A program made the translations under genes and the position numbers. The notes beneath the pieces were generated by a model, which was given only the letters and a program-made list of their open reading frames with translations, had not been told where the DNA came from and ran no database searches. 64,000 nt of DNA from a bacterium. Lineage in GTDB: Bacteria; Zhuqueibacterota; Zhuqueibacteria; Residuimicrobiales; Krinioviventaceae. Positions 7,028 to 59,773 of the stretch are shown here, one piece after another (within the stretch, counting starts at the first letter, position 1; each line of letters starts with the position of its first letter). The stretch lies in contig CAXXMD010000002.1 in assembly GCA_963675755.2 (NCBI GenBank), positions 1,536,001 through 1,600,000 on the forward strand, in the 5' to 3' direction.

Positions 7028-7059
7028 AACCCGGAAGGTTTTGATCTTCCGGGTTTTTT
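7028..7059 (+). terminator. Rho-independent terminator
   Basis: AACCCGGAAG-loop-CTTCCGGGTT followed by a T tract, just after the oxidoreductase stop. Confidence 0.85.
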
Positions 7060-29864: not shown

Positions 29865-31232
29865 ATGGGAAAAGAAATGGATAATTCAACAAAAATCTCC
29901 AGACGTACATTTGTAAATACGGCAGCGGCAAGCGCATTTGCCTTTCACTTTATTCCAGCTCGTCTGCTTGGCAAAGACGCACCCAGCAATAAATTAAACA
30001 TAGCGGGTATTGGAATTGGTGGAATGGGTAAAGGCAATCTCACACGCTGTGAAAGTGAAAACATAATGGCATTGTGCGATGTAGACAGCAGTTATGCTGC
30101 ACCCATATTTGAAAAATACCCGAATGCCAAAACCTATACCGATTATCGTGTAATGCTTGATAAAGAAAAAGACATTGATGCAGTAGTCATTGCTACTCCA
30201 GACCATACACATGCTGTTATTACCATGGAGTGTATGGAAGCAGGCAAACATATCTATTGCCAAAAGCCTCTTACTCATACTGTATATGAAGCCCGTAAAA
30301 TTACAGAAGCAGCACGAAAATATGGTGTGCAGACACAAATGGGCAACCAGGGACACTCGTCCGAACATATTCGCTTATTAAAAGAATGGCTTGCAGATGG
30401 AGCAATAGGCAATGTGACTGAGGTGCATGCCTGGACAGATCGCCCCGTAGGTGGAGATCCCTGGTCTACATTTGCGGTCAAAGCCAAATCAAAAGAGATT
30501 ATACCTGTACCTGAATCACTAAATTGGGATCTATGGTTGGGTCCCGCGGCCAGTCGTCCCTATCATCCGGATTACCATCCGCTCTCATGGCGTGCATGGC
30601 TTGATTTCGGCACCGGTGCATTGGGAGATATGGGCTGTCATATTCTGGACCCGGCTTTCTGGGCCCTTGATTTAGGAGCACCAGATACCATACAAGCAAC
30701 CTCTACACACTGGCAGGACGATGTAAGCTCGGAAACCTTTCCTCGGGCTTCAATAGTCAGATTCCATTTCCCAGAAAAAAACAACAGACCACCGGTCAAG
30801 ATCACCTGGTACGATGGTCGCTTAATGCCGCCAATGCCTGCAGAACTTGAAGCTGACCGTGAGTTGCCCGGTAGTGGGGCTTTGATCATTGGTGACGAGG
30901 GTACTATCTTGCATGGTTCTCATGGCGCCGGTGCAATGCGTATAATACCTGAGAAAAAGATGCAAGCATACAAACCACCTGCCAAAACGCTGCCGAGAGT
31001 TGAAGGTACTCACGAAGGTGACTGGATCAGAGCATGCAAAGATGGGAATCCCGCCAGCTCAACATTTGATTATGGTGGTCCATTGACTGAAATGGCATTA
31101 TTGGGAATGATTGCAATTCGTATGAAAAACAAAATACTGAAATGGGATACCAAAAATCTCAGGTTTACCAACAATGATGAAGCAAACAAGCTTTTGCATA
31201 TCGATTATCGAGAAGGTTGGAAAAAAATCTAG
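29865..31232 (+). CDS. Tat-exported Gfo/Idh/MocA family oxidoreductase
   Basis: SRRTFVN, GIGGMG, IATPDHTH, QKP, GDMGCH; paralogue of 5617-7017. Confidence 0.92.
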   Translation: MGKEMDNSTKISRRTFVNTAAASAFAFHFIPARLLGKDAPSNKLNIAGIGIGGMGKGNLTRCESENIMALCDVDSSYAAPIFEKYPNAKTYTDYRVMLDKEKDIDAVVIATPDHTHAVITMECMEAGKHIYCQKPLTHTVYEARKITEAARKYGVQTQMGNQGHSSEHIRLLKEWLADGAIGNVTEVHAWTDRPVGGDPWSTFAVKAKSKEIIPVPESLNWDLWLGPAASRPYHPDYHPLSWRAWLDFGTGALGDMGCHILDPAFWALDLGAPDTIQATSTHWQDDVSSETFPRASIVRFHFPEKNNRPPVKITWYDGRLMPPMPAELEADRELPGSGALIIGDEGTILHGSHGAGAMRIIPEKKMQAYKPPAKTLPRVEGTHEGDWIRACKDGNPASSTFDYGGPLTEMALLGMIAIRMKNKILKWDTKNLRFTNNDEANKLLHIDYREGWKKI

Positions 31233-39984: not shown

Positions 39985-41487
39985 TTATTTGACCAGACTG
40001 GTATTGGTTTGAAAATCGTATAATGTTTTTCGTTTCAGATCTGCAATTGCTAATTTATAATCAACATATGCGGATAAATACGCCGACTTGGCACTTACCA
40101 GGCGGTCACGGTTGTCTGCCAACACCGTACTGGTTATATCACCGTTATTAAAACGTTCAAGGGTAATATCAAAATTCCTTTGAGCAACCGATTGACGTTT
40201 TTCAAGAACATTCAAACGATTCTCAGCTTCTTTGAGTTGACGGACAGCATCTCTCACTTCACGAACGATTGTTTTTTTCTGTTCCTGCAGATCCAGTTCT
40301 CTGCTCCGCATTACTGCTTTTGCCTGTTCAACTTCTGCCTGATTTACTCCCCAATCAAAAATAGGCACTGATAAAGTAAAACCCACACTCCGGTTATTGG
40401 GACGTCTGTCCATATCTTCCAGGCTTGAATTCCAAAGTGTACCGGGAGAAGAATCGTAATCCAGGTTGGCATCACTCACTCCCACAAGCTCATAAGAAGC
40501 CCACAAATTACCTTCGATGGTACTTTGTGCGTCGACTTCTTTGATTGTCAATTTTGCAAGTTCTATATCGATCTCATTTTCACGGATTTCGGACCGGTTT
40601 TCAAGTGCAAGCTCTACGGCTTTATCTAGATTTACATCAAATTCCTGAACGTCGATTTCTGTTTGCACTGTAATATTGTCGCTGAAATTCAAACCAATTT
40701 CCTGCAAAAACGTGTCCCGGGTACGCTCCATATCAGATTCTGCAATAACCAGCAGGTTTTCGCTTTCCGCAAGGTCAACTTCCATTTCAAGGGCTTCAGT
40801 TTCAGCAATGAGTCCCGCATTGAATTTTTTACTGGCAATATCATACAGCTCTTTTTGCTGCGCAACATTGTCCTGCGCGATCTGGAATTGTCGAACACCC
40901 TGATAATATTGAAAAAAAGCATAGGTTACACGGTAAATAATAAACAGTTCATTCTGATTACTTTGCCTTTGCGTACGTTCATAGTTTAAATCTGCCTGCT
41001 TTAAACCCAGTTTTAAACTGTTGACAGTAAACAAGGGTTGATCAAATTGCAGACTCAGTGAAGTATAAACATCCTTTCTCATAAGATCGGTTGAGGTTTC
41101 GGCAAGATAAGTTGATACATCACGATGATATGTGGACCCCCGTAAACGAATTACACCATCGGTTGGCAGCGGCTGGTTCAGATCCATTCGACCATAATAC
41201 ATAACACTTCCAGTCGTATTAAAAACAGGCAGAGAATTTTGGACCGGAATAGACGAAACCGATTCCTCCCAATTGGGGAGTTGAAATGACATATCCGCAT
41301 TGGTTTTAAAACGTCCTTTTGCGGCGATAAGACCTTGTTCCGCGCGCATCAAGTTAAGGCGTAGTACTTTCATGTCGTAACTTTTTTCAAGCGCAATATC
41401 AATAGCATCATCAAGTGTCAGCATATAATCAGCAGCAAGGACTGGCATAAAAAAACATAAAATTATTATGGGTAAAATACTTTTCAT
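39985..41487 (-). CDS. TolC family outer membrane efflux protein
   Basis: LTLDDAIDIALE, LSVPIFDWG, coiled-coil repeats. Confidence 0.9.
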   Translation of the reverse strand: MKSILPIIILCFFMPVLAADYMLTLDDAIDIALEKSYDMKVLRLNLMRAEQGLIAAKGRFKTNADMSFQLPNWEESVSSIPVQNSLPVFNTTGSVMYYGRMDLNQPLPTDGVIRLRGSTYHRDVSTYLAETSTDLMRKDVYTSLSLQFDQPLFTVNSLKLGLKQADLNYERTQRQSNQNELFIIYRVTYAFFQYYQGVRQFQIAQDNVAQQKELYDIASKKFNAGLIAETEALEMEVDLAESENLLVIAESDMERTRDTFLQEIGLNFSDNITVQTEIDVQEFDVNLDKAVELALENRSEIRENEIDIELAKLTIKEVDAQSTIEGNLWASYELVGVSDANLDYDSSPGTLWNSSLEDMDRRPNNRSVGFTLSVPIFDWGVNQAEVEQAKAVMRSRELDLQEQKKTIVREVRDAVRQLKEAENRLNVLEKRQSVAQRNFDITLERFNNGDITSTVLADNRDRLVSAKSAYLSAYVDYKLAIADLKRKTLYDFQTNTSLVK

Positions 41488-41506
41488 TTTTCATTTGCTC
41501 CCGCGG

Positions 41507-42748
41507 TTATTCGTATCTCAGGGCTTCGATAGGATTGATCTCTGATGCACTCTTGGCGGGAAACGTACCGAAAATAACTCCAACCGCTCCTGACACACCA
41601 AAAGCCACAATTACAGAAATAGGTGTTATTGCTGTTCTAAATTCAGCAAAGCTGTTGATGACCAATGACATGACCACCCCCAGAATGATACCAACCAATC
41701 CGCCGGTAAAAGAGAGTCCTACGGCTTCGATCATAAACTGGTAAAGGATTTCTTTGCGTCGCGCGCCTAATGATCTTCGGATACCAATTTCACGAGTGCG
41801 TTCCAAAACCGTTGCCAGCATAATATTCATAATACCTATACCGCCAACCAGTAGAGAAATAGCCGCAATAGATCCCAAAACCATATTATAGATACGTGTT
41901 TCTTTTTCTTCCTGTTTTAACAACTCGTAAGGAATTACAATATCAAAATCATTATTTCCACGATGTCTGCGGTTAACAATTCGCCTCACAACGGCAGCAC
42001 TTTCCAACAGATTTTGAGAATCATCAATCTTGATGGTCAACTGATTAATCTCACTGGCCAATTGCTGCTCTTTATCAAATCTGCGTAAAAATGAAGACAG
42101 TGGTACATAAATATCCTGATTCAGGTTCCTTGAAGCAAGCTCCCCAACCGTTTCAGTAAATAAGGATTTGGTTCCCATAACTCCAACCACCTCGAACCAT
42201 TGATCGTCCAGTTTTACTTTTTTACCAATAGGGTCCTGCACCGGGAACAAGTTTTTTGCAACATCTGCGCCCAGCACGCAAACACGCAATTGTCGTTCAT
42301 GCTGGTCAGGAGTTAAAAAACGACCCTTGTCGGTTTCGTAATTAAGTATATTTGAAAAATTTGAAGAAACCCCAACAACGGTTGATTTGGTGGACTTGTC
42401 TTCATATTTAGCATCCATATCCATTTCAGACTGTGAAGCAACCATATCCACTGTGGGTACAATTTCCTGTATAGCCTGTGCATCACGAAGTGATAAACCA
42501 CGAGAAAATTTAGCACGGACTTCTTCCAGCTCTTCCTCATTCAGGTCTTTGTCCCGAACAATAATATTATTAACTCCAAGCATTTTGTATTTTGCAAGGG
42601 CTTCACGTTTGGCGCCTTCACCAATAGAAAGCATGGCAATAACGGCAGAAACACCAAAAATAATACCCAGCATAGTCAACAGTGAACGCAATCGATGGAC
42701 CTTGAGTCCTTCCAGTCCTATGAGAATTATGTCCCGCAATTCCATCAC
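41507..42748 (-). CDS. MacB/FtsX-like ABC transporter permease (no NBD)
   Basis: RSLLTMLGIIFGV, GGIGIMNIML..V.ERTREIGIRRSLGA, PIEALRYE. Confidence 0.92.
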   Translation of the reverse strand: MMELRDIILIGLEGLKVHRLRSLLTMLGIIFGVSAVIAMLSIGEGAKREALAKYKMLGVNNIIVRDKDLNEEELEEVRAKFSRGLSLRDAQAIQEIVPTVDMVASQSEMDMDAKYEDKSTKSTVVGVSSNFSNILNYETDKGRFLTPDQHERQLRVCVLGADVAKNLFPVQDPIGKKVKLDDQWFEVVGVMGTKSLFTETVGELASRNLNQDIYVPLSSFLRRFDKEQQLASEINQLTIKIDDSQNLLESAAVVRRIVNRRHRGNNDFDIVIPYELLKQEEKETRIYNMVLGSIAAISLLVGGIGIMNIMLATVLERTREIGIRRSLGARRKEILYQFMIEAVGLSFTGGLVGIILGVVMSLVINSFAEFRTAITPISVIVAFGVSGAVGVIFGTFPAKSASEINPIEALRYE

Positions 42749-43932
42749 ACTTCTCCCGTGCTTAAATCCACTACCTTGTCTCCCGGTTTGAATCCTTCAC
42801 CGGAAATAACAACATGTTCAAAATTTTTAGGGCCCAGTTCAACTTTTACTCTCTTGTTTCCGGAGCCTTTTTGTAAATATATATAATAGTTGCCATCTTC
42901 TTCTTCAATGCACTCGTTTTTTACATAGGTTGCATCTTTGATCTGCGATACCAGAAATTCACAGCTCACTGTCATACCCGGTCTTACAATGCGTGTAATA
43001 TCATCCAACAATACTTCAACATCAAAAACTTTGATCTTGGATTCCCGTTCTTTTTTACGACACACCTTGCTTACAAAGGTCACAGTGCCGGTAAATTCAT
43101 CTTTTGGAAACGCATCGAGCCATACCGAAGCCTTTTGTCCTACTTTGATCTTTGTCGCGTCGCGTTCATTTACGGTGGTTAGTACTTTCATTTTGCTCAA
43201 ATCCGGAAGCTTTATAATTCCGTGCCCTGGTCGTAATTCACTCCCCACCTCAGTTTTGCCCCTCCACCGATGAACATAGTGCACGACCATTCCATCTGCC
43301 GGAGCACGCAACATAAAGTTATTCATTGTTCGTTCGGCTTTATCAATTGCAGACAATATCTGCTTCTTTTTTTCATCCTGAATGATCAATTCTTCATGAT
43401 TGAGGATTTTCTGCAACTCGAGTGTTTCACGACATTTTTCAAGTTCTATTTTGGCAATTTTAAATTCGAGTCGGGATATCTCTTTTTGTGCATTGGATTC
43501 AAATTGTACACGCTGAGTATCAATTATCGCTTTTCGAAACGTAGCTTCAGCGGATTTTAGCTCTGCTTCAAGTCCTTTTATCGCTGTTTCCTGCTCTGCT
43601 AACAGTTTATTATAGTCCGCAGTGTATATTTCCATCTCAGATCTACGAGTACCCAATTCCTTTGCAACAGATGAAGTATCGATCATACCTACATATTCAC
43701 CTTTTTTTACACGGGTACCTTCATCCACCATATCTGCAACTTTGGGTCTGCCATACGCCCAGTTAAATTGGGGCATAACTACCAGCTTTGAATTCACAGA
43801 ACGCACTTCACCGGTTTCTGTAATTGTGGCCTCAAATGTACCTTTTTGTATTCTGTCGCCACCGGACAATGCTCCTCCACATGCAGCAATTAATGATGCC
43901 AATAACGGAAAGGCGATTAACCATTTTTTCAT
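42745..43932 (-). CDS. Efflux periplasmic adaptor (MFP) 3
   Basis: Lipobox, LRAPADGMV, VNERD, RPGMTV. Confidence 0.85.
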   Translation of the reverse strand: MKKWLIAFPLLASLIAACGGALSGGDRIQKGTFEATITETGEVRSVNSKLVVMPQFNWAYGRPKVADMVDEGTRVKKGEYVGMIDTSSVAKELGTRRSEMEIYTADYNKLLAEQETAIKGLEAELKSAEATFRKAIIDTQRVQFESNAQKEISRLEFKIAKIELEKCRETLELQKILNHEELIIQDEKKKQILSAIDKAERTMNNFMLRAPADGMVVHYVHRWRGKTEVGSELRPGHGIIKLPDLSKMKVLTTVNERDATKIKVGQKASVWLDAFPKDEFTGTVTFVSKVCRKKERESKIKVFDVEVLLDDITRIVRPGMTVSCEFLVSQIKDATYVKNECIEEEDGNYYIYLQKGSGNKRVKVELGPKNFEHVVISGEGFKPGDKVVDLSTGEV

Positions 43933-45164
43933 GATTCCTCTCCCTTTTCTTTTTCTTCCGGTGCTTTAAAAATTTCAGGATCAACAAGAGCAAGTTCCAT
44001 ATTCGGTTCAATTCCCTTAGCTACAATCACATAATCATCATTCTCCGAACCCAGTGTAACCGGAACCGTATCAAAATCTCTGCCTTTTTTCACATATACA
44101 ACATCCTGACCGTCTTTATGAAAAACAGCTTCTATAGGTACATATAGTGTATCCGCAATTCGGTCAATCACAATTTCGCAACTGACAGTCATGCCGGGCA
44201 TTAAAGCTTCATGGGTTCTGTCAAGGTTGACAATAACATCAAAAACTTTGACTTTGGAATCACGTTCTTTATTACGTGCCAGGGTTGCGATATCTGTTAC
44301 TATCCCTGTAAATACAGAATCCGGATATGCATCCAAACGAATGTTTACCTGCTGCAAGGTATCTATCTTGGCAATATCCACCTCATTGACCGGCACTTTG
44401 GCGCTCATCAGTGTCAGATCAGGAAGTTTTGCAATAGAATTTCCCCGCCAAACATTATCGTCAACCTGATATTTATCATCAGTTGAACGGTTTCTTTCAA
44501 GAATGGCAATACCGGGAGATGGTGCGGTTATGGTCAATTTATCAAGAGTGATCTGTGCTTCTTCAAATTTGGTTTCTTCCTGGTGAACCTGAAGTTGTAA
44601 TTTATTTAGCTCTTCACGGCTTACATTTTTTTGGTTTTCAATTTCCTGTTTTGCTTTTTCCAGCGTAATAACCGAACGGTCCAGCTCTAGCTGAATTTCT
44701 TTTTTACGGATCTCTGACTCGTATGTAGCTTTTTCAAGATTGAGTTGAGAAATCTTGTATTGCAACTGGGTCTTTTCAAGATCAGATTCCAATTCTTTCA
44801 TCCGTGATGCATTACTTGCCTGTGCTTTACGTAATTCTGCTTTGGCAATCTCGAGGGCTGCCTCAGCATCATCCAGCGCTTTTTTCACTTCGGTTTGATC
44901 AAAACGGACAATCAAATCTCCATTTTTAACCTGAGCGCCATCTTCAATAATATCTGTAATCTGCAATCCACCAAACCGCCATGAAATAGACGGCGCTTTA
45001 ATCATGATGGAATTTACTGCTTCCAGCTCACCTGTTTCAACAACACTGTACAGGAAATCACCGCGTTTTACTTTATAGGTTTCTATTTCCATTTCAGTTT
45101 CGGAACCACAGCCCGCTAATAACCAGATTACCAGTAATGCAAATAATAAAATTTTATTCTTCAT
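43929..45164 (-). CDS. Efflux periplasmic adaptor (MFP) 2
   Basis: LAGC lipobox, ITAPSPG, VNEVDI, MPGMTV, VPIEAV. Confidence 0.88.
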   Translation of the reverse strand: MKNKILLFALLVIWLLAGCGSETEMEIETYKVKRGDFLYSVVETGELEAVNSIMIKAPSISWRFGGLQITDIIEDGAQVKNGDLIVRFDQTEVKKALDDAEAALEIAKAELRKAQASNASRMKELESDLEKTQLQYKISQLNLEKATYESEIRKKEIQLELDRSVITLEKAKQEIENQKNVSREELNKLQLQVHQEETKFEEAQITLDKLTITAPSPGIAILERNRSTDDKYQVDDNVWRGNSIAKLPDLTLMSAKVPVNEVDIAKIDTLQQVNIRLDAYPDSVFTGIVTDIATLARNKERDSKVKVFDVIVNLDRTHEALMPGMTVSCEIVIDRIADTLYVPIEAVFHKDGQDVVYVKKGRDFDTVPVTLGSENDDYVIVAKGIEPNMELALVDPEIFKAPEEKEKGEES

Positions 45165-45178
45165 GCTTTTGTCCCGAT

Positions 45179-46507
45179 TTATTCAATTGTTTGAGATATT
45201 TTTCTGTTATCTGACAGTTGTGTTAGAGTTGAATCCGCCGCCGGTACTGTTTGTGTAGAATCGCTTTTCAGTGAATCAACTGGCAGCTTGTATGCTGTCA
45301 AAGTGTCCGGCCAGTCAACATTTTTTTCCGGTGGCTGCAAAAGTGCAAGTTCAAGAGCATTTGTAAAATCCCCATGGATCAATGTATAATCATAATCCTG
45401 ACCGGTTTGTGCAATGGGATAAGGTTTAAATTTCTTGCCATCTTTTGCATATACAATTTTTACACTGTCATGTTCAAAAATACATTCAAGGGGAACTGCC
45501 AGTGCATTTTCAATGGTTTCAACTTTAATATTACACATTGCAGTCAATCCTGGCACCATCCCCGGGTATGTACTATCCGCTTGAACAACCACATCCACTT
45601 TTTTGACTTTGGAACGCCGTCTGATGGGTTTGGCCATTTTATCAACAAAACTAACCTTGCCTGTAAGGTTTAAATCTTTTAATACGGGAATATAGATTGT
45701 TGCCTGCTGACCAAGTTTAAGCTTTTGAGATTCCGTTTCACTCACCTGGAGTTTTACCTGCATTGCCGACATGTCTGGAATTCTGGCAATAGGTCGTCCG
45801 GGATACGCCCGGTCACCAACCAGTACCGGTTCATTGCTCCAGCGATTTCGGACATGTACCACATAGCCGTCAACAGGTGCCAAAATGGAAAGCTTTTTCA
45901 GGTCCTGACTGAATTTATCAACCCTGGATTGCGCCTGGCGAATGATCAAATTCTGATGGGCCCGCTCTTCTTTCTGAATTGCGGCAAGAAATTCCATCTT
46001 TTCCATATTTTGCTGGGCATCCAGCTCATATTGTTCAATTTGGAGCTGCTTTATTTCTCTGACTTTGGGAGGTTCGAATTCAAGTTTTGAAGACTGGAGT
46101 TTAGCGGACTGCATGGAAGCAAGTGCGTCTTTGTATTGCGATTCATATTGCAAACGCTCTAATTCTAATTCAGCAAATCGTTGTTCCGCATCTGCTTTTG
46201 CTACCTGCAGTTCATCCAAAGCGTTTACATAATTATTTTGTAGTTCTTCTGCTTCGAGTGTAAATACTACGTCCCCTGCATTAATATAGGTCCCTTCTTC
46301 CGCCAAATAAGCTACCTGCATATCCGCCCAAATATGAGGTGCGGGAAGGACCTGGGCCTTGATTGCTTCCAAAACCCCTTCTGCTTCAACCTGAACAGTA
46401 AAGTCCTGTCTGGTGGCATGATATGTCAAGATCGCTTTTCCGGATTTGGAATTGCAACCCAACAACAAATAGAATAACAGGAAAACATATATGTTTTTTT
46501 TCATCAT
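45179..46507 (-). CDS. Efflux periplasmic adaptor (MFP) 1
   Basis: MMKKN..LLGC lipobox, ILAPVDG, VPGLTA, VPLECI. Confidence 0.85.
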   Translation of the reverse strand: MMKKNIYVFLLFYLLLGCNSKSGKAILTYHATRQDFTVQVEAEGVLEAIKAQVLPAPHIWADMQVAYLAEEGTYINAGDVVFTLEAEELQNNYVNALDELQVAKADAEQRFAELELERLQYESQYKDALASMQSAKLQSSKLEFEPPKVREIKQLQIEQYELDAQQNMEKMEFLAAIQKEERAHQNLIIRQAQSRVDKFSQDLKKLSILAPVDGYVVHVRNRWSNEPVLVGDRAYPGRPIARIPDMSAMQVKLQVSETESQKLKLGQQATIYIPVLKDLNLTGKVSFVDKMAKPIRRRSKVKKVDVVVQADSTYPGMVPGLTAMCNIKVETIENALAVPLECIFEHDSVKIVYAKDGKKFKPYPIAQTGQDYDYTLIHGDFTNALELALLQPPEKNVDWPDTLTAYKLPVDSLKSDSTQTVPAADSTLTQLSDNRKISQTIE

Positions 46508-46594
46508 GGTTCCTGGTTGTTTTAAATCTATTCTAATAACCGTTTGCCGGTTCTGTTTGGAAATCTTGAGGACTACATGCAAAGAATATTATAT

Positions 46595-51356: not shown

Positions 51357-52577
51357 TCAGCTCATAAACTGTGTACGTCTTTTAATTTCCTGATCGCTCC
51401 AGCTGCCACAGCCGGGTATCATGGTGCGCACAATGGATACAACATCGGAACTATCTACGAGCCCCAAACGCAGTGCGTGTTTGAGCGGTAAAAAATAATC
51501 TTCCGGAAGCACACGGTAATGTGCCTCACATTGCGGATGCGGTAACGGATGTTTGATCAAACCGGTCATTGCTAAAAAGATACCCACATAATGGCGGTAA
51601 ATCCCTACATTCCCCGGCGTCCAAAAGTCTTTGGCTGCGGCCTGCAGATCCTGCTCAATAGCCAGTGAACAGGGTTTGCCCATCCTTACAAATTCCCGCC
51701 ACAGCTTGAATAGCGTTGGACTGATTTGAGATGCGCCCAATAAATAACCATGCCTTTTCAAATTCTTTCCGTAACGTGCAAGTGCAATAAACCAGTCATT
51801 ACCAGTAGAAAACTGTACCCTGTCAGGGGCCACCTGCTCAACAATACGTAATCGATCGATATCATCACAAAAATCATACTGACAAACAAAATTCGATTTT
51901 CTGCTGATCAACGCACTTTTGTATTCATGGATCTCTGGGGTTTGCGCAATGATAGATTCAATTTCAAAAAGATTAAAGTTTGAACCAAATCCCGGAATAC
52001 CAATATCCAGTTCAAAAAACACAAAACCAAAATCCGTAAATTCAGAGACAACCTTGCCAATTTCACGATACGCTTTAATCTTTTCATCTGACGGAGCGTC
52101 ATACAATCGCTTATCCGGTACCGGCATATAACGAATACGACGGGTTGTTTTGCGTTCTCTCAGGCCGGCATCAATTTCTTTGATCAGCTCACGGGTCTTG
52201 CCTGCTACATCCTTTATATCAAGATCAAAAGGATTGGTATTAAGTCCGGCAACAATGAGTGGTCGGTCACTTGCTATATAGCCTGAATTTTCGGAAGCCA
52301 ATTCGGCGGTTCGCCAGATGAGTCTTTTGGTCAGGTCCCAATCGTTATAAATGGCCCAGGTTGTATCTACATTGGTTGCAGGCACATGCCCGGAGCGCAA
52401 GGCGTCAATAACCAGGTTATCATAACTCTCCCAGTCAAAGTTACCTTTTGGGTCCCACGGCCCATACAGGGCCGTTGTTCCCAGAATTTCTTTATTACAT
52501 TGACGGTCATACACATCCTGAATGGTCACTCCTGTAACCGGAGAATATGCTTGTGTCAATGGAATGCCTTTTGTCAT
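51357..52577 (-). CDS. Divergent dihydrodipicolinate-synthase-family (class I aldolase) protein
   Basis: P...G.FDW, VPATNVDT, FEL, EYK (candidate Schiff-base Lys), TGND, YLLG motifs of the PAVNMDT-type DHDPS-like subfamily. Confidence 0.65.
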   Translation of the reverse strand: MTKGIPLTQAYSPVTGVTIQDVYDRQCNKEILGTTALYGPWDPKGNFDWESYDNLVIDALRSGHVPATNVDTTWAIYNDWDLTKRLIWRTAELASENSGYIASDRPLIVAGLNTNPFDLDIKDVAGKTRELIKEIDAGLRERKTTRRIRYMPVPDKRLYDAPSDEKIKAYREIGKVVSEFTDFGFVFFELDIGIPGFGSNFNLFEIESIIAQTPEIHEYKSALISRKSNFVCQYDFCDDIDRLRIVEQVAPDRVQFSTGNDWFIALARYGKNLKRHGYLLGASQISPTLFKLWREFVRMGKPCSLAIEQDLQAAAKDFWTPGNVGIYRHYVGIFLAMTGLIKHPLPHPQCEAHYRVLPEDYFLPLKHALRLGLVDSSDVVSIVRTMIPGCGSWSDQEIKRRTQFMS

Positions 52578-53824
52578 TAAGGAATTACCCTCAAATTATT
52601 TTTTTGTAAACGTTCCGGTTCCCAATTTGCAGGTACAGGTTTGGGATATTTAAAAAAATCATCAGATTCAACCGGAGCGCCATTATTGGCAGCACTGTCA
52701 TACAGAGCCTCAACCTGACCCAGAATATTCAAAGCATTGACAGCGTCTTTTTCGTATTTTTTACCGGTCAGTATGCAGGTTAAAAAATCAGACAATTCAT
52801 AAGCGAACGGATCATGATACGGGAGATCCAAATATTCCCAATGATCTCTCCACTCTATCTTTTCACCTACAACTGATTTTTCCCAGCGATTTGCAGGTGC
52901 CGTTTCTTTCCACTGTACTTTGAGTCCATAAAGACCGAAAATCATAGAACCCCCTTCACCATCTACTGTGATTTCAAGAGGACCAAACTCGGAATTAACA
53001 CGACGATACCATGACCAGATAGAAGTATTGACTACCCCACTGGTATGTTCACGTCGAAGCGCAGCATAATCTTCAACATCACAATCGATCACAGTCTTCC
53101 CGTCTGTGCTCATTCTTTGAGGAACAATGAGTCTTGCAGAAGCGCTCAATCTCTCGGTTTCACCAAACAACGCATTTGACAAGTATCCTTCATGGCACAT
53201 ATCCAGAATAATACCGCCGCCAGCTTCTTTAAACACCCAGTTAAAATCAGGGCGTTGACCAGAGAATTCAGCATTGCCTTCAAGTCCGGCACCTACTTCA
53301 TAACCAAACAACATCTGGGCGCTAAGGGGTTTGATTTTGGGCATCAGTTCAATGGCTTTCAACAAGCCAGGGGTAGAGATCATGTGATGTACAACACCGT
53401 GGGTAAAACCTCCTTTTTCCATCGCTTCAACAATGGCAAAGCCATCATCATAATTCGATGCCAGGGGTTTTTCCATAAAACAAAAGGTGGTTTTGGAATC
53501 CAATAACGGTAATGTATCAAGTACAACCCGGCGGCGGATACCGGTAGAAATTGTACAATGATAAATCTGAACATCCGGATTTTGACTTTTTGCAAAAGCA
53601 TACGCTTCCGGAATGTTATCATAATAATGTTTCAGTCCTTTTTCTTCTGCAACAGCTTTTACTTTGTCAAGATTACGGCTCACTCCAATTGGCAAGGGTT
53701 TTACAATATCACCGTTAACAATTGTTTTTTCATCATTGGCAATACTATTTAAAGCAGTTAATGCAATTTGTCCCATTCTTCCTGTAACACCATGTATAAT
53801 TACAGGGACAATTATATTTGCCAT
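52577..53824 (-). CDS. Gfo/Idh/MocA family oxidoreductase
   Basis: IIHGVTGRMG, MEKP, QRPDFNW..GGGIILDMCH; stop overlaps the next ATG. Confidence 0.85.
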   Translation of the reverse strand: MANIIVPVIIHGVTGRMGQIALTALNSIANDEKTIVNGDIVKPLPIGVSRNLDKVKAVAEEKGLKHYYDNIPEAYAFAKSQNPDVQIYHCTISTGIRRRVVLDTLPLLDSKTTFCFMEKPLASNYDDGFAIVEAMEKGGFTHGVVHHMISTPGLLKAIELMPKIKPLSAQMLFGYEVGAGLEGNAEFSGQRPDFNWVFKEAGGGIILDMCHEGYLSNALFGETERLSASARLIVPQRMSTDGKTVIDCDVEDYAALRREHTSGVVNTSIWSWYRRVNSEFGPLEITVDGEGGSMIFGLYGLKVQWKETAPANRWEKSVVGEKIEWRDHWEYLDLPYHDPFAYELSDFLTCILTGKKYEKDAVNALNILGQVEALYDSAANNGAPVESDDFFKYPKPVPANWEPERLQKNNLRVIP

Positions 53825-53858: not shown

Positions 53859-54914
53859 TTACAACAAACCCTGACGATAAGCCATTTCAGCGTTCAAAAT
53901 TGAACCACCGGCTGCACCGCGAACAAGGTTATTTGAAAGTGTTACAAAACGAATAATGTTACCCTCTACCTGCAATCTACCAACAGAGACAGCCATACCC
54001 GCTGCTCGCTCAGGGCTGCCGGCTTTCACATCATAACGATGCTGTGGACGATCAATTTCAGTACGGTAAATAACCGCTTGCTCAGGAGCTGTTGGTAAAC
54101 CAGCAACCTGTTCGGGAGATTTGTAATTCTGAAATGCTGACAGAACTTTATCATATTCCATGTCGTTTTCCATTTCCGCGTGAACAGAGATGAGGTGACC
54201 TACTATTGCCGGAACACGAATACAATGCGCATGGATTTCCCAATCCGCATCCAAAATATGACTATCATTAAAAGTACCACAAATCTTTTTGGTTTCGCTC
54301 AACAGTTTAGGTTCTTCATTGCCGATATAAGGAATCACATTTCCCTGAATATCCATAGCAGACAAACCGGGGTACCCGGCACCAGAGATTGCCTGATAAC
54401 TTGCAACAACGAGGCGTTTAATGCCCATAGGAATAATTGGCAGCAGCGCCATGGTTAATCCTGTGGTAGTACAGTTTGCATTGGTTATGATAAATCCTTC
54501 AGTATCACTTTGTGCTTTTGTCAAACCAATATGCTCATGATTAACTTCCGGTATTAAAATAGGTACATTCTTGTCCATACGATAAGAGCTGGCATTTGAA
54601 AAAACCTTCATACCTTCTTTGGCAGCTTTTTTTTCTATAGTATCTGCAATATCTGCTGGCAATGCTGAAAAGATCACTTTAATCTCTTTTTCCATCAATA
54701 TATCAACATCAATAGGATCAAAAACAAGATCAGCAAACGCTTGAGGAATACCACCATCAATATGCTCTTTCATCTCACCCAGTGTTTTACCTGTTCGAGC
54801 TTCACTGGCACATACAGCACCCAACTCAAAATAGGGATGACCGTTCAAGAGTTTCAAAAAATGCTGGCCTACAACACCGGTTGCACCCAAAACTGCACAT
54901 TTTACTTTTTTCAT
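53859..54914 (-). CDS. asd: Aspartate-semialdehyde dehydrogenase (archaeal/fungal-like type)
   Basis: LGATGVVGQ, SNASSYRM..VPILIPEVN, TNANCTT, QAISGAGYPG, RVP...GH, NLVRGAAG. Confidence 0.93.
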   Translation of the reverse strand: MKKVKCAVLGATGVVGQHFLKLLNGHPYFELGAVCASEARTGKTLGEMKEHIDGGIPQAFADLVFDPIDVDILMEKEIKVIFSALPADIADTIEKKAAKEGMKVFSNASSYRMDKNVPILIPEVNHEHIGLTKAQSDTEGFIITNANCTTTGLTMALLPIIPMGIKRLVVASYQAISGAGYPGLSAMDIQGNVIPYIGNEEPKLLSETKKICGTFNDSHILDADWEIHAHCIRVPAIVGHLISVHAEMENDMEYDKVLSAFQNYKSPEQVAGLPTAPEQAVIYRTEIDRPQHRYDVKAGSPERAAGMAVSVGRLQVEGNIIRFVTLSNNLVRGAAGGSILNAEMAYRQGLL

Positions 54915-54951
54915 AACATCCTCGTTTATTATATGATTTTCATTAAATACT

Positions 54952-54988
54952 AAAAAAAAAGCCCACAGTGTAGTTCTCTGCGGGCTTT
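54952..54988 (-). terminator. Attenuator terminator upstream of asd
   Basis: AAAGCCCGCAG-loop-CTGTGGGC-T9 on the minus strand, between the leader ORF and the asd start. Confidence 0.85.
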
Positions 54989-55010
54989 AAAAACTCTAAT
55001 GGATATAGTA

Positions 55011-55073
55011 TTATAAAGCCCAACTCTTTTTAAAAGTTTTTTTCATGGTTTTCTTTTTCATATCAATAGTCAT
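55011..55073 (-). CDS. Attenuator leader peptide MTIDMKKKTMKKTFKKSWAL (aspartate-family amino acids)
   Basis: 20 codons; 15 of the first 16 are Lys/Met/Thr/Ile/Asp; 3' end GGGCTTTA is complementary to TAAAGCCC of the terminator 5' arm; purine-rich AGAAGAG upstream. Confidence 0.8.
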   Translation of the reverse strand: MTIDMKKKTMKKTFKKSWAL

Positions 55074-55097
55074 AATTTTCTCTTCTATTAGGTTTAT

Positions 55098-55126
55098 AAA
55101 TTACTCATTTCCTGACGAAATGTCAA
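55098..55126 (-). promoter_or_regulatory. Sigma70 promoter of the leader-asd operon
   Basis: TTGACA (55126-55121)-17 nt-TAATTT (55103-55098). Confidence 0.7.
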
Positions 55127-55197
55127 GATTTAATATTGGCTTTTTGAAAAGGAATTCTTATAATATAGTGGTAACTGTTAAATGGAAATGATCAGTA

Positions 55198-55629
55198 TTG
55201 CGAATTGAAATTCAAAAAACAGGATTTACCAAAGTATTACCGGGATTGTTTTTCGCCGTAATTGGCAGCACAGGTGTTGCTGTAATTCATTTTTTTCCAG
55301 AAATATTACATCAAATACCCGCTTGTTTGTTCAGAGAGTTTTTTAATATACCCTGTCCGGCTTGCGGTGCAACTCATAGTGGCATATATCTGGCACATCT
55401 GAACATTCCGGCTGCTCTGTTGGCCAATCCGTTTTTCTTTTTGGTGTATATTTTTATATTCCTGTGGAGTTTGAATGCCCTGGCAGGATTATTGTTTAAG
55501 AAAAATATGCAAATTGTTTTAACATTAAAAGAGCAGACAATCCTTTACCGGATTATTCTCTTTTCTTTTCCACTTAACTGGCTGTTTTTAATTCTCTTTT
55601 CCATTTTTACAGGAAGAAATGGTCAATAA
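55198..55629 (+). CDS. DUF2752 family membrane protein
   Basis: C.F..FFNIPCPACGAT, ANPF. Confidence 0.8.
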   Translation: MRIEIQKTGFTKVLPGLFFAVIGSTGVAVIHFFPEILHQIPACLFREFFNIPCPACGATHSGIYLAHLNIPAALLANPFFFLVYIFIFLWSLNALAGLLFKKNMQIVLTLKEQTILYRIILFSFPLNWLFLILFSIFTGRNGQ

Positions 55630-57868: not shown

Positions 57869-59773
57869 ATGGACACTCAAAAATACTTTATTATTGGAAC
57901 AGCAGGGCACATTGATCATGGCAAATCTGCCATGGTCAAAGCGCTCACGGGAACAGATCCCGACAGGCTTTCAGAGGAACAGGAACGCGGAATGACCATA
58001 GATCTGGGATTCGCGTTTTTGAATGAACAGATAGCAATTATTGACGTACCCGGTCATGAACGGTTTATTAAAAATATGGTGGCTGGTGTCAGCACTATAG
58101 ACATGGTAATGATGGTCATTGCGGCAGATGATGGTGTAATGCCGCAAACCCGTGAGCATTTGGACATTTTGAATGTATTAAATGTTAAACAAGGTATAAT
58201 TGTTATATCCAAAGCTGACCTGGTTGACGATGAATGGTTAGAGATAGTCAAAGAAGATATTGGCACTCTGGTAAAGGGGACTTTTTTACAGGATAAACCC
58301 ATCATCCCTATTTCTTCGGTTAAAGGCACTGGAATTAAAGAGTTGAAACAACTTCTTTTAGATACAGTTTCAACCCTTCCACCTAGAAAAAACCGGGGTG
58401 TATTCTGGATGCCAATTGACCGATCCTTTTCCATCAAAGGATTTGGCACTGTGGTTACCGGCTCTGTATTGTCAGGCAGTCTTCAGCCCGGTAATGTTCT
58501 TGACTTGCTGCCGGAGGGAAAACAGGTCAAGGTTAGGGGCATTCAAACACATGGTAAATCAACAGAAACAGTAAGGCTGGGTGAACGTGCAGCAATAAAC
58601 CTGGCCAACATCTCGAAAGAAGAAATCATTCGGGGAGATGTATTGGCTAGTCCCGAATATTTTACTCCCTCTAACATATTTGATGCAAAGCTGGATATCT
58701 TAAAATCAGCAAAAAAACCGTTAAAAAACAGAGCAAGGGTTAGGGTACATATCGGGACGCGTGAGGTTATTGGCCGCATTCGGATACTGGACCGGGACCT
58801 TATCGCTCCCGGTGAAAACGGGTATGTACAGCTAAAGCTTGAACAAACTGCGGTAGCTATTCGTCGTGATCCGTTTGTGATACGGCAATACTCTCCTGTT
58901 GTGACAATTGGCGGTGGTATCATTCTGGATACCAACCCGAAACACCATAAACGGTTTGATCATGCCATATTGAAAAAACTGCAAACTCTTGAAACAGAAA
59001 ATCCATTAGAGACGCTGAATATCCTTTTAATGAGCAATGCAGAAACAGGTCTGAATCTGAATGAGCTGGAAAAGCAATCAGGCATGGAACAAGGGCCCTT
59101 GATCGAATACCTTGAACAATTGTTAAATCAGGAACAAATTGTTAATTGTGGTTCAAACAAAAAACCGCAATATTTTCCTGCAACCCAAATTGCGCAAACG
59201 CGTGAAACCATTCTGAATCTGTTGCAACAGTTTCACGAGTCTGAGCCATTGAAACCGGGTATGAACAAGGCTGAATTAAAGAAAACAACACGTTCGGCCA
59301 TCTTGTTCGAATTCATTCTGGAATCACTGATTAATGAAGAACTGATTACCATAACATCAAACCGGGTCAAACTGAGCAGCCACAGAATTAAGCTGGATGA
59401 AAAACAGGAAAAAATCGCAGATCAGATAATGGATATGCTGACCAAAGCAGGTTACAGCCCGCCGGGTATTGATGAACTGGCTAAATCAATTGGAAGCCGC
59501 GTTCAGGAGACTGAAAATCTTATTTATGCACTTGAAGGATTGAACAAAGTTGTCAGAGTTGAAGATGATGTTTATTTTACAGCGCCCGCATTAAAAGCTG
59601 CCAGAGAAAAACTGATAAACTTTATCAGGCAGAACAAGGAAATAACTGTAAGCCAATTTCGTGATGAGCTGGACACCTCGCGTAAATATGCTATGGCCCT
59701 TTTACTCTATTTCGACAATATTGGTTTGACGGTACGAGTGGAAGATGTAAGAATTCTGGATCAGGTAATTTGA
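57869..59773 (+). CDS. selB: Selenocysteine-specific translation elongation factor
   Basis: [45 protein letters not shown]-terminal SRKYA winged helix. Confidence 0.96.

What the first reader, a model, noticed from the sequence alone, without database searches (positions are those of the whole stretch)
54952..55126. Unannotated Lys/Met/Thr-rich leader-peptide attenuator upstream of asd
Seen on the minus strand, in order: a TTGACA-17-TAATTT promoter; a 20-codon ORF MTIDMKKKTMKKTFKKSWAL (7 Lys, 3 Met, 3 Thr, 1 Ile, 1 Asp; 15 of the first 16 residues are aspartate-family); a GC hairpin plus T9 terminator; then asd. The last leader codons (GGGCTTTA) pair perfectly with TAAAGCCC, the 5' arm of the terminator. 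Established: this is the thrL/trpL logic, where stalling frees the antiterminator and full translation masks it. Asd sits at the branch point supplying Lys, Met, Thr and Ile. Lysine genes are usually controlled by the lysine riboswitch or by transcription factors. Inference: this is a ribosome-mediated attenuator dominated by Lys that integrates all aspartate-family end products; I know no characterised example of that.
Basis: partly seen in the sequence, partly recalled or inferred. Interest (0 to 1): 0.88.

Follow-up and report, generated by a model that had tools for sequence, protein, structure and literature searches.

The report
Lys/Thr/Met leader-peptide attenuator before asd
A tiny 20-codon gene rich in lysine, threonine and methionine codons, followed by a stop-or-go RNA hairpin switch, sits just ahead of the asd gene and most likely lets the cell make more of this enzyme when those amino acids run short; this is a familiar kind of switch with an unusual codon mix and target gene.

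Summary
On the minus strand lie TTGACA-17-TAATTT, a 20-codon ORF (MTIDMKKKTMKKTFKKSWAL), an 11-bp hairpin plus T9, then asd 38 nt later. The ORF's last 9 nt pair with the terminator's 5' arm.

It is more than chance:
- It is one of only 3 strong terminators in 64 kb, and the only one in a 5' leader.
- A species with 96% identical Asd keeps the peptide, with 2 synonymous changes and none at codon positions 1 and 2.
- A species with 66% identical Asd has a different 18-codon ORF (MTKSTKKMTTKLRDVGLL) with the same promoter spacing. It has the same ORF-end/terminator overlap and a K/T/M-only block at the same 7 codons before the stop.
- Nascent-RNA folds give antiterminator probability of about 0.9 when a ribosome stalls in that block, and 0 when it reaches the ORF end.

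Limits: only 3 instances, 2 of them near-identical. A fourth relative lacks the element, the window copy has a weak Shine-Dalgarno, and Lys richness partly reflects A-rich composition. Nothing was tested experimentally.

Verdict: a probable ribosome-mediated attenuator sensing Lys, Thr and Met. It is a new variant of a known kind, of moderate interest. The downstream genes include an unannotated DapA-like aldolase.

The parts
55121..55126 (-). -35-like hexamer TTGACA of the leader promoter
   Evidence: Read. CTTGACATTT is invariant in the window, L001 and L002. L002 has the same 17-nt spacing to a TAnTTT hexamer.
55098..55103 (-). -10-like hexamer TAATTT, matching TATAAT at 3 of 6 positions
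   Evidence: L002 has TACTTT at the same spacing. It falls below the threshold of the promoter scan. There are no differences between the window and L001 in the -35, spacer or -10.
55080..55086 (-). Weak Shine-Dalgarno-like AGAAGAG, 6 nt before the leader ATG
   Evidence: It contains no canonical 4-mer, whereas 28 of 51 ORFs in the window have one. L002 has AAGGAAG at this place.
55011..55073 (-). Leader ORF of 20 codons plus TAA: MTIDMKKKTMKKTFKKSWAL
   Evidence: L001 has the identical peptide with 2 synonymous third-position changes and 0 of 42 changes at codon positions 1 and 2. L002 has an 18-codon ORF in the same place.
55035..55058 (-). Regulatory codon block K6-T13 (KKKTMKKT). Codons 14 to 8 before the stop are K, T or M only in both the window and L002
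   Evidence: Register table. With the ribosome A site on these codons the antiterminator keeps a probability of 0.90-0.94.
55014..55022 (-). Antiterminator 5' arm (A), UGGGCUUUA, formed by the last 9 nt of the leader coding sequence
   Evidence: It makes 9 pairs with B. It is masked when the A site is at codon 16 or later, or at the stop.
54981..54989 (-). Shared arm (B), UAAAGCCCG, which pairs either with A (antiterminator) or with C (terminator)
54952..54988 (-). Intrinsic terminator: 11-bp stem, 9-nt loop, T9 tail
   Evidence: Energy of -16.3 kcal/mol alone. It is one of 3 strong terminators in the 64-kb window, and the other two lie at 3' ends of genes. The stem-loop and T-run downstream of the B-arm positions are identical in L001, whose only changes in this span are at 54989-54988.
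53859..54914 (-). asd, aspartate-semialdehyde dehydrogenase (archaeal-type asd_EA), the first regulated gene
   Evidence: TIGR00978 at 4e-121, 404 bits against a cut-off of 301. Pfam Semialdhyde_dh and Semialdhyde_dhC.
52577..53824 (-). 415-aa Gfo/Idh/MocA-family oxidoreductase, second gene of the operon, with N-terminal motif GVTGRMGQ
   Evidence: Pfam C-terminal domains. The N-terminal part matches GFO_IDH_MocA at E 0.0025 and DapB_N at E 0.082. PDB 3oqb at 7e-27. Atlas clusters. 66% identical to the L004 gene.
51357..52577 (-). 406-aa protein with no Pfam or NCBIfam family, predicted DapA/NAL-type class I aldolase fold. Third gene, whose start overlaps the previous stop
   Evidence: No family found. 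87 homologues, all unnamed or 'hypothetical'. AlphaFold2 pLDDT 89.8. Top Foldseek PDB hits are dihydrodipicolinate synthases at E 7e-11 and target-normalised TM about 0.8. A family profile hits only DHDPS chains in the PDB, 6 of 6, best E 0.006.

Best explanation
This is a ribosome-mediated (leader-peptide) transcription attenuator of the asd operon, which comprises asd, a Gfo/Idh/MocA oxidoreductase and a DapA-like aldolase.

Proposed mechanism:
1. Transcription starts a few bases after TAATTT.
2. A ribosome translates the 20-codon leader while RNA polymerase moves on.
3. If lysyl-, threonyl- and methionyl-tRNA are plentiful, the ribosome reaches the last codons or the stop and covers arm A (UGGGCUUUA).
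4. Arm B is then free to pair with arm C. The hairpin plus T9 forms and transcription ends 38 nt before asd.
5. If one of these tRNAs is poorly charged, the ribosome stalls in the K/T/M block (codons 6-13), which is far enough upstream to leave A exposed.
6. A then pairs with B as soon as B is made, the terminator cannot form, and asd is transcribed.

Shown here: the anatomy, its conservation and the structural alternatives.
Inferred: translation of the ORF, stalling at K/T/M codons, coupling to polymerase, and the response to amino-acid supply.
For: 1. A strong intrinsic terminator lies inside a 5' leader, with a divergent gene upstream. It therefore terminates no upstream gene.
2. The terminator and antiterminator are mutually exclusive. 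The antiterminator appears in the MFE of the whole leader (-28 kcal/mol, z -2.3, 4 of 200 shuffles fold as well).
3. In nascent transcripts cut at the terminator loop, P(antiterminator) is 0.90 (window), 0.86 (L001) and 0.97 (L002) with no ribosome.
It is 0 from codon 16 (window) or 13 (L002) through the stop.
5. Between the window and L001 the ORF has 2 differences in 63 nt. Both are synonymous third-position changes, with 0 of 42 at positions 1 and 2.
6. For comparison, the 5'UTR has 5 differences in 24 nt, and asd has 58 of 352 third positions changed.
7. L002 (Asd 66% identical, same synteny with DUF2752 and the TIM-barrel gene) has a different ORF with the same layout:
   - TTGACA-17-TACTTT and a good Shine-Dalgarno (AAGGAAG);
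   - an ORF end (GUGGGCUUG) that pairs with the terminator 5' arm (CAAGCCCAC);
   - a T9 tail.
8. One A:B pair changes on both sides: U-A in the window, G-C in L002.
9. Codons 14 to 8 before the stop are only K, T or M in both versions (KKTMKKT and TKKMTTK), with Met at -11 in both. In the window's proteins K is 6.3%, T 6.0% and M 2.5%.
10. Shuffle tests gave 6 of 20000 (window) and 79 of 20000 (L002).
11. The regulated genes fit the signal. Asd feeds the Lys, Thr and Met branches (established pathway knowledge). The third gene has a DapA-type fold. Relatives insert aspartate kinase in the same operon.
12. The scan predicts no sigma-70-like promoter between the terminator and asd in the window or in L002.
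13. No Rfam family fits.
Against: 1. There are only three instances, and two of them (window, L001) are near-identical.
2. L004 has the same synteny but no mini-ORF or terminator. L003 is uninformative because its contig starts 16 nt upstream of asd. None of L005-L080 has the element.
3. The window and L001 leaders lack a canonical Shine-Dalgarno 4-mer, although this genome uses them in 28 of 51 ORFs.
4. Given an ORF, 7 or more Lys codons arise in 74 of 834 shuffles for the window. In L002, 4 or more arise in 570 of 1689. Lys richness alone is therefore largely a matter of A-rich composition.
5. The choice of K, T and M was made after seeing the sequence, which flatters the shuffle numbers.
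6. Lys codons 15 and 16 of the window lie where a stalled ribosome would already mask arm A. P(antiterminator) there is 0.64, falling to 0.
7. At equilibrium the full-length window and L001 leaders fold into the terminator (P 0.96) wherever the ribosome is placed. Switching therefore depends on co-transcriptional order, which I modelled only crudely.
8. No anti-antiterminator exists, so an untranslated leader would read through. This differs from classical attenuators.
9. In L001 the B arm change (TAAAGCCC to CCAAGCCC) weakens the antiterminator from 9 to 7 pairs and is not compensated.
10. In L002, 220 nt separate the terminator from asd, so a second promoter missed by a consensus scan is possible.
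11. In the window a TATAAT hexamer (54933-54928) lies between the terminator and asd. It has only a 3 of 6 match at the -35 position and would start transcription inside the asd Shine-Dalgarno.
12. There are no expression data.
Confidence: 0.6

Rival explanations
1. The element is a translation-coupled attenuator that senses general translation capacity rather than specific amino acids. The ORF is translated and a ribosome at its end triggers termination. Any slowdown of ribosomes or any failure of initiation gives read-through. On this view the K/T/M content only reflects a need for A-rich, unstructured RNA.
For: The three-segment design reads through by default when no ribosome is present. 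The 5' part is 49-56% A, and Lys richness is largely explained by composition. The Shine-Dalgarno in the window is weak.
Against: The 7-codon block made only of K, T and M sits at the same register in two diverged versions, with K and T swapped for each other rather than for other A-rich codons such as N, I, R or E. K+T+M reached the observed level in 6 of 834 shuffled ORFs for the window and 79 of 1689 for L002. The amino acids match the products of the Asd pathway.
Confidence: 0.15
2. The promoter, A-rich body and hairpin plus U-tail form an independent small gene. This would be either an Hfq-type small RNA, with A-R-N repeats and a U-rich 3' end, or a 20-aa basic peptide. On this view asd has its own promoter, and the adjacency is inherited synteny.
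For: The architecture of promoter, about 140 nt of RNA and a strong terminator is that of many sRNAs. In L002 the terminator is 220 nt from asd. A review seen (PMC12612679, passages only) notes that attenuated leader transcripts such as rnTrpL can also act as sRNAs, so the two roles need not exclude each other.
Against: In the window only 38 nt separate the T-run from the asd ATG, and no promoter is predicted there. The scan finds none in the L002 spacer either. The ORF end overlaps an antiterminator in both diverged versions, which an sRNA has no need for. The peptide sequence is not conserved between the window and L002 beyond the K/T/M class, which argues against a functional peptide.
Confidence: 0.1
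3. The terminator/antiterminator switch is real but is set by a trans-acting RNA-binding protein or a small ligand binding the A-rich leader, as an unknown riboswitch or a protein-mediated attenuator. The ORF would then be incidental.
For: An ATG ORF of at least 15 codons ending at that stop arises in 4-8% of shuffles. L004 controls the same operon without the element.
Against: The substitution pattern is coding-like: 0 of 42 changes at positions 1 and 2, against 2 of 21 at position 3 and 5 of 24 in the 5'UTR. The leader upstream of arm A has no conserved structure: the small hairpin in the window is not kept in L002. No Rfam match was found. Nucleotide sequence is poorly conserved between the window and L002, while the frame is kept.
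Confidence: 0.1
4. The ORF and hairpins are a chance combination with no regulatory role.
For: AT-rich intergenic DNA is involved, the sample of relatives is small, and the element is absent from L004.
Against: This is the only 5'-leader terminator among 3 strong terminators in 64 kb. All parts are conserved in L002 despite sequence turnover. The shuffle results point the same way. The promoter hexamers and spacer are fully conserved, 0 of 29 differences, while the adjacent 5'UTR changed at 5 of 24 positions.
Confidence: 0.05

Closest known systems
E. coli thr operon leader (thrL; Rfam Thr_leader RF00506)
   Same: A short leader ORF is rich in the end-product codons of an aspartate-family operon and is followed by a terminator/antiterminator switch. 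It is multivalent, with Thr and Ile codons (recalled textbook knowledge).
   Different: There is no sequence or structure membership: Thr_leader scores 16.8 bits against a gathering score of 55. Here the codons are Lys, Thr and Met, and the target is asd rather than thrA. The switch has three segments and no anti-antiterminator. The host is a KSB1-like uncultured bacterium (names), not a proteobacterium.
ilvGMEDA / ilvBN leaders (multivalent attenuation by Ile, Leu, Val)
   Same: One leader peptide integrates several end products of a shared pathway (recalled).
   Different: The amino acids and genes are different. Those leaders use the four-segment design.
Lysine-codon leader peptide of the Thermus thermophilus lysine (alpha-aminoadipate) gene cluster
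   Same: It uses ribosome-mediated attenuation with Lys codons as the signal. This is recalled from a 2005 J Biol Chem paper. No call retrieved it, and searches did not find it.
   Different: It controls the aminoadipate pathway, not asd or the diaminopimelate branch. As far as I recall it senses Lys only, not Thr or Met.
Lysine riboswitch (L box, RF00168)
   Same: It performs the same task in many bacteria: premature termination upstream of lysine-pathway genes when lysine is plentiful (recalled).
   Different: It binds lysine directly through a structured aptamer of about 180 nt. No match appears in the E<=10 Rfam scan of this region or in the gathering-threshold scan of the window. The leader here is too short and too unstructured, and it contains a conserved ORF.
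asd RNA motif of Lactobacillales (Rfam; name recalled)
   Same: It is a conserved RNA element found upstream of asd genes.
   Different: It is a structured non-coding motif without a leader ORF. It is not among the 13 sub-threshold matches.

Membership tests
Ribosome-mediated (leader-peptide) transcription attenuators | Short translatable ORF in the 5' leader with a start codon and ribosome-binding site | tested here: met
   ATG ORF of 20 codons. The Shine-Dalgarno is weak in the window and L001 (AGAAGAG / AAGAG) and good in L002 (AAGGAAG). Translation itself is not shown.
Ribosome-mediated (leader-peptide) transcription attenuators | Enrichment of codons for the amino acid(s) made by the regulated pathway | tested here: met
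   K 7, T 3 and M 3 of 20 codons. The K/T/M-only block at codons -14 to -8 occurs in both the window and L002. Shuffles gave 6 of 20000 and 79 of 20000. Lys alone is not significant given the composition.
Ribosome-mediated (leader-peptide) transcription attenuators | Intrinsic terminator between the leader ORF and the structural gene | tested here: met
   11-bp stem plus T9, -16.3 kcal/mol. It ends 38 nt before asd.
Ribosome-mediated (leader-peptide) transcription attenuators | Antiterminator mutually exclusive with the terminator, whose formation depends on ribosome position | tested here: met
   A:B has 9, 7 and 9 pairs in the window, L001 and L002. P(antiterminator) is about 0.9 with the ribosome on the K/T/M block and 0 with it at the ORF end or stop (in silico only).
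Ribosome-mediated (leader-peptide) transcription attenuators | Anti-antiterminator (1:2 pairing) giving termination when the leader is not translated, as in classical trp, thr and his leaders | tested here: not met
   Without a ribosome the nascent RNA forms the antiterminator (P 0.86-0.97). The only upstream hairpin in the window does not compete with arm A and is not kept in L002. This feature defines the classical four-segment subtype, not the mechanism as such.
Ribosome-mediated (leader-peptide) transcription attenuators | Conservation of the ORF and the switch in relatives, with coding-type substitutions | tested here: met
   Present in 2 of 3 informative close relatives (L001, L002) and absent in L004. 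L003 has no upstream sequence. The window and L001 differ at 0 of 42 positions 1+2 and 2 of 21 position 3. The sample is small.
Ribosome-mediated (leader-peptide) transcription attenuators | Read-through rises on starvation for the cognate amino acid | not testable with these tools
   Needs reporter, Term-seq or in vitro coupled transcription-translation experiments.
Rfam Thr_leader (RF00506) and Trp_leader (RF00513) | Covariance-model score at or above the gathering score | tested here: not met
   16.8 against 55 bits, and 15.9 against 41 bits.
Lysine riboswitch (RF00168) | Match to the aptamer model | tested here: not met
   Not among the 13 matches at E<=10 in 54700-55400. No gathering-level hit anywhere in the window and none at E<=0.1 in L001-L004.
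DapA / N-acetylneuraminate lyase class I aldolase family (for the 406-aa operon gene) | TIM-barrel fold and sequence similarity to DHDPS | tested here: inconclusive
   Fold is met: top Foldseek hits are DHDPS, E 7e-11, target-normalised TM about 0.8, 14-20% identity. Sequence is marginal: the profile hits only DHDPS chains, best E 0.006, N-terminal 60 residues only, and there is no Pfam hit. A near-invariant Lys (K220) lies in predicted strand 6, but its equivalence to the Schiff-base lysine was not verified by a structural alignment. Activity is unknown.

The most novel reading that the evidence does not exclude
In a KSB1-like lineage the shared branch-point enzyme Asd is controlled by a multivalent leader peptide that reads Lys, Thr and Met charging at once. 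This would be a transcriptional counterpart of the concerted Lys+Thr feedback known for aspartate kinases.

The codon mix may also track what is co-transcribed. It is Lys-heavy (7 K, 3 T) where asd is fused to a non-canonical pair resembling DapA and DapB. It is balanced (4 K, 4 T) where asd stands alone, as in L002.

The switch is a minimal three-segment design that reads through by default. The linked 406-aa and 415-aa genes would then be unrecognised analogues of the first two committed lysine/diaminopimelate steps.
Probability: 0.3. Interest if true: 0.65.

Novelty: new variant of a known kind. Interest (0 to 1): 0.5.

Why it matters
Leader-peptide attenuation is a classic mechanism, but described cases cover mostly Trp, His, Phe, Leu, Thr and Ile/Val operons in a few phyla. 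Lysine-pathway genes are normally assigned to the lysine riboswitch or to protein regulators.

A Lys/Thr/Met leader on asd would show that the branch-point enzyme itself can be placed under multivalent ribosome-mediated control. It would extend the mechanism to a poorly known, uncultured lineage. It would also give a compact three-segment switch of about 140 nt that could be tested, or reused, as a sensor of lysine and threonine charging.

The element also flags the two downstream genes as candidates for a non-canonical start of the lysine branch. These are a DapA-fold protein family with no Pfam entry and a Gfo/Idh/MocA oxidoreductase.

The limits are the small number of instances and the lack of any experiment.

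Tried and rejected
- **Rfam.** The region at E<=10 gave 13 sub-threshold matches. These rest largely on the terminator hairpin, as the three printed alignments show (best: sau-41, 30 bits against 80). The whole window at gathering threshold gave 0. L001-L004 at E<=0.1 gave only a tRNA and a weak DicF match elsewhere. A known RNA family is rejected.
- **Equilibrium folding of the full leader with a sliding ribosome mask**. In the window and L001 the terminator wins everywhere (P 0.96), so this test does not discriminate. I replaced it with folds of the nascent transcript.
- **MAFFT alignments of the leader**. These put the L002 A arm 5 columns out of register. One search fixed the A arm but placed a gap inside the B arm. 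I therefore did not run the count of structure pairs or build a covariance model, and made the pair tables by script instead.
- **Search for the element upstream of more distant asd_EA genes.** In 76 loci from Acidobacteriota, Ignavibacteria, archaea and others, none had a terminator plus mini-ORF. One (L021) had a terminator-like hairpin without an ORF.
- **Other leader-type elements in the window.** There is no other amino-acid biosynthesis operon in the 64 kb and no other 5'-leader terminator.
- **Slippery poly-A reading.** The A7 run in the window (AAA AAA A) is broken in L001 by AAA to AAG, so it is not conserved.
- **Literature.** Ten searches found no leader peptide upstream of asd and no Lys/Thr/Met leader. 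Passages of PMC2965389, PMC4833913 and PMC12612679 gave nothing on lysine or asd leaders. The Thermus lysine leader paper that I recall was not retrievable.
- **Sequence search of the 415-aa and 406-aa proteins against the PDB.** This gave only a structural-genomics 'oxidoreductase' (3oqb) for the first and noise-level chitinase-like hits for the second. The fold search and the family profile were informative instead.
Full report
**1. What is there**

Read on the minus strand, the 283-nt gap between asd and a divergent DUF2752 gene (55198-55629, plus strand) contains the following parts in order.

| Part | Coordinates | Notes |
|---|---|---|
| -35-like hexamer TTGACA | 55126-55121 | |
| Spacer | 55120-55104 | 17 nt |
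| -10-like hexamer TAATTT | 55103-55098 | 3 of 6 match to TATAAT |
| AGAAGAG | 55086-55080 | weak Shine-Dalgarno-like |
| Leader ORF, ATG to TAA | 55073-55011 | MTIDMKKKTMKKTFKKSWAL |
| Spacer | 55010-54990 | 21 nt |
| Hairpin AAAGCCCGCAG / 9-nt loop / CTGTGGGCTTT | 54988-54958 | |
| T9 run | 54960-54952 | |
| Gap to asd | 54951-54915 | 37 nt, contains a GAGGA Shine-Dalgarno |
| asd ATG | 54914 | |

- The last 9 nt of the ORF, UGGGCUUUA (arm A), pair with UAAAGCCCG (arm B). Arm B is also the 5' arm of the terminator.
They do list a good divergent promoter for the DUF2752 gene at 55136-55164.

**2. Is it more than chance?**

- With stricter criteria (at least 6 pairs, at least 4 G-C pairs, T6 or longer) the whole 64-kb window has only three terminators. 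Two sit at the 3' ends of long genes. The third is this one, inside a 5' leader with no gene upstream on its strand.
- Dinucleotide shuffles of the sequence upstream of arm A gave an ATG ORF of at least 15 codons ending at the same stop in 834 of 20000 cases. Such an ORF with at least as many K+T+M codons arose in 6 of 20000.
- The same test shows that Lys richness alone is weak evidence. Among the 834 shuffled ORFs, 74 had 7 or more Lys codons, because the region is 56% A.

**3. Relatives**

Only four are close. All others are 45% identical or less.

| Locus | Asd identity | Upstream of asd |
|---|---|---|
| L001 | 96% | same peptide, same switch |
| L002 | 66% | different ORF, same layout |
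| L003 | 63% | contig starts 16 nt upstream of asd, so uninformative |
| L004 | 60% | same divergent DUF2752 neighbour, but no mini-ORF and no terminator |

None of L005-L080 has a terminator plus mini-ORF upstream of asd.

*L001.* The ORF differs from the window at two positions, ACC to ACA and AAA to AAG. Both are synonymous.
- 0 of 42 first and second codon positions changed, against 2 of 21 third positions.
- 5 of 24 bases of the 5'UTR changed.
- 0 of 29 bases in the promoter hexamers and spacer changed.
- In asd, 58 of 352 third positions changed.
- This is the pattern of a translated sequence under purifying selection, although part of it is also constrained by RNA pairing.
- The B arm changed from TAAAGCCC to CCAAGCCC, which shortens the antiterminator from 9 to 7 pairs without compensation.

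*L002.* This is the informative case. The nucleotide sequence has largely turned over, yet the layout is the same:
- TTGACA, 17 nt, TACTTT;
- a good Shine-Dalgarno (AAGGAAG);
- an 18-codon ORF, MTKSTKKMTTKLRDVGLL;
- an ORF end (GUGGGCUUG) that pairs with CAAGCCCAC, the 5' arm of a 10-bp terminator with a T9 tail.

One A:B pair differs on both sides, U-A in the window and G-C in L002.

Counting codons back from the stop, positions 14 to 8 read KKTMKKT in the window and TKKMTTK in L002. They are only K, T or M in both, with Met at -11 in both. A hydrophobic residue follows at -7.

Shuffles for L002 gave an ORF in 1689 of 20000 cases and an ORF with K+T+M at the observed level in 79 of 20000.

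In L002, 220 nt separate the terminator from asd. The scan finds no sigma-70-like promoter there and the spacer has no unusual structure (z -1.6).

**4. Does the switch work on paper?**

| Quantity (kcal/mol) | Window | L001 | L002 |
|---|---|---|---|
| Terminator alone | -16.3 | -15.9 | -15.6 |
| Antiterminator region | -13.1 | -11.2 | -17.3 |

(All values.)

- The MFE of the 156-nt leader contains the antiterminator (-28 kcal/mol, z -2.3).
- At equilibrium the complete window and L001 leaders prefer the terminator wherever a ribosome is placed. As in known attenuators (recalled), the decision must therefore be kinetic.
- I folded the nascent RNA up to the terminator loop. The antiterminator forms with probability 0.90 (window), 0.86 (L001) and 0.97 (L002).
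- It persists (0.90-0.98) when a ribosome footprint is centred with its A site on any codon up to 14 in the window or 11 in L002. That range includes the whole K/T/M block.
- It drops to 0 from codon 16 (window) or 13 (L002) through the stop codon.
- So a ribosome that finishes the peptide frees arm B for the terminator, and one stalled in the K/T/M block does not.
- Two of the window's seven Lys codons (15 and 16) lie past this boundary and would not help.
- There is no anti-antiterminator, so an untranslated leader is predicted to read through. This departs from the four-segment trp/thr design.

**5. What is regulated**

- *Gene 1* is a bona fide Asd of the archaeal-type asd_EA class.
- *Gene 2* (415 aa) is a Gfo/Idh/MocA oxidoreductase. 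Its N-terminal GVTGRMGQ gives a weak DapB_N hit (E 0.082). This is a lead only.
- *Gene 3* (406 aa) has no Pfam or NCBIfam family.
  - Its 87 homologues are all unnamed or 'hypothetical'. Those that carry a name come from candidate division KSB1, Chloroflexi and Lentisphaerae.
  - An AlphaFold2 model is confident (pLDDT 89.8).
  - Its best PDB matches are dihydrodipicolinate synthases and sialic acid lyases (E 7e-11, TM about 0.8 normalised by the target).
  - A family profile hits only DHDPS chains in the PDB (6 of 6, best E 0.006, N-terminal region).
- In L003 and L004 an aspartate kinase lies between asd and these genes. In L002 asd stands alone. L001 is organised like the window.
- The operon therefore belongs to the aspartate family. 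In the window it plausibly includes analogues of the first lysine-branch steps. That fits the Lys-heavy leader there and the balanced K/T leader before the solitary asd of L002, but this rests on two data points.

**6. Comparison with what is known**

- No Rfam family reaches its threshold. Thr_leader scores 16.8 against 55, Trp_leader 15.9 against 41, and there is no lysine riboswitch or asd-motif match.
- Functionally the element works like thrL or ilvL, which are multivalent leader peptides (recalled). It also resembles the Lys-codon leader that I recall for the Thermus thermophilus lysine cluster. That paper could not be retrieved.
- Ten full-text searches found no leader peptide reported upstream of asd.
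- The attenuator survey of Naville and Gautheret (PMC2965389, passages only) mentions neither lysine nor asd.
- The library lacks most subscription papers, so 'not in print' holds only for these searches.

**7. Verdict**

This is most likely (about 0.6) a ribosome-mediated attenuator responding to Lys, Thr and Met charging.
- The evidence for Ile or Asp sensing is nil. The 'Lys-dominated' label holds for this copy only.
- The design is a minimal three-segment variant.
- Weaknesses are the tiny comparative sample, absence from L004, a weak Shine-Dalgarno in the window copy, composition effects, and no experiment.
- It is a new variant of a known kind, with moderate interest (0.5).

**Left unchecked**

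- Further genomes of the lineage, and other aspartate-family genes in the same genomes, were not searched.
- It is unknown whether the organism has a second asd or canonical dapA/dapB.

Noticed in passing
window 51357-52577 (-) and 52577-53824 (-); L001 5091-7558; L003 2472-4912; L004 6502-7746: A conserved gene pair travels with asd, and in L003/L004 also with aspartate kinase. One member is a 406-aa family with no Pfam or NCBIfam entry: 87 homologues, all unnamed or 'hypothetical', the named ones from KSB1, Chloroflexi and Lentisphaerae. Its confident model has a DapA/sialic-acid-lyase fold. The other member is a 415-aa Gfo/Idh/MocA oxidoreductase with a DapB-like GxxGRMG N-terminus. Together they may be a non-canonical start of the lysine/diaminopimelate branch, or another pathway that consumes aspartate semialdehyde.
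   Followed up: partly
L004 3811-4000: L004 has the same synteny as the window (a divergent DUF2752 gene, then asd) but no mini-ORF or terminator. There the operon carries aspartate kinase directly after asd. The leader was therefore either gained in the window/L002 branch or lost in L004.
   Followed up: partly
window, whole 64 kb: Only three strong intrinsic terminators (at least 6 pairs, at least 4 G-C pairs, T6 or longer) occur in 64 kb: at 7030-7053 (+), 31305-31281 (-) and the asd leader. Most genes here end without a canonical hairpin plus T-run.
   Followed up: no
window 55136-55164 (+): The best sigma-70-like promoter match in the region (TTGGCT-17-TATAAT, 10 of 12) points towards the DUF2752 gene. 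It lies back to back with the leader promoter, 10 nt apart.
   Followed up: no
window 57869-59773 (+): A selB gene is present (selenocysteine-specific elongation factor; TIGR00475, 7.9e-111), so the organism probably makes selenoproteins.
   Followed up: no
window 39985-46582 (-): An efflux-type cluster carries three consecutive membrane-fusion (RND_mfp/HlyD-like) paralogues of 395, 411 and 467 aa, next to a MacB-like permease and a TolC-family outer membrane protein.
   Followed up: no
window 5617-7017 (+) and 29865-31232 (+): Two paralogues of the BT_2158-type glycoside 3-dehydrogenase family occur (E 2.4e-171 and 2.5e-152, both below the curated cut-off). Glycoside hydrolase genes lie alongside, which suggests a polysaccharide-degrading lifestyle.
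   Followed up: no
window 8705-9424 (-): A 239-aa metallo-beta-lactamase-fold protein has a weak match to the subclass B3 model (87.5 bits against a cut-off of 240). It is far below the level needed to call it a beta-lactamase.
   Followed up: no
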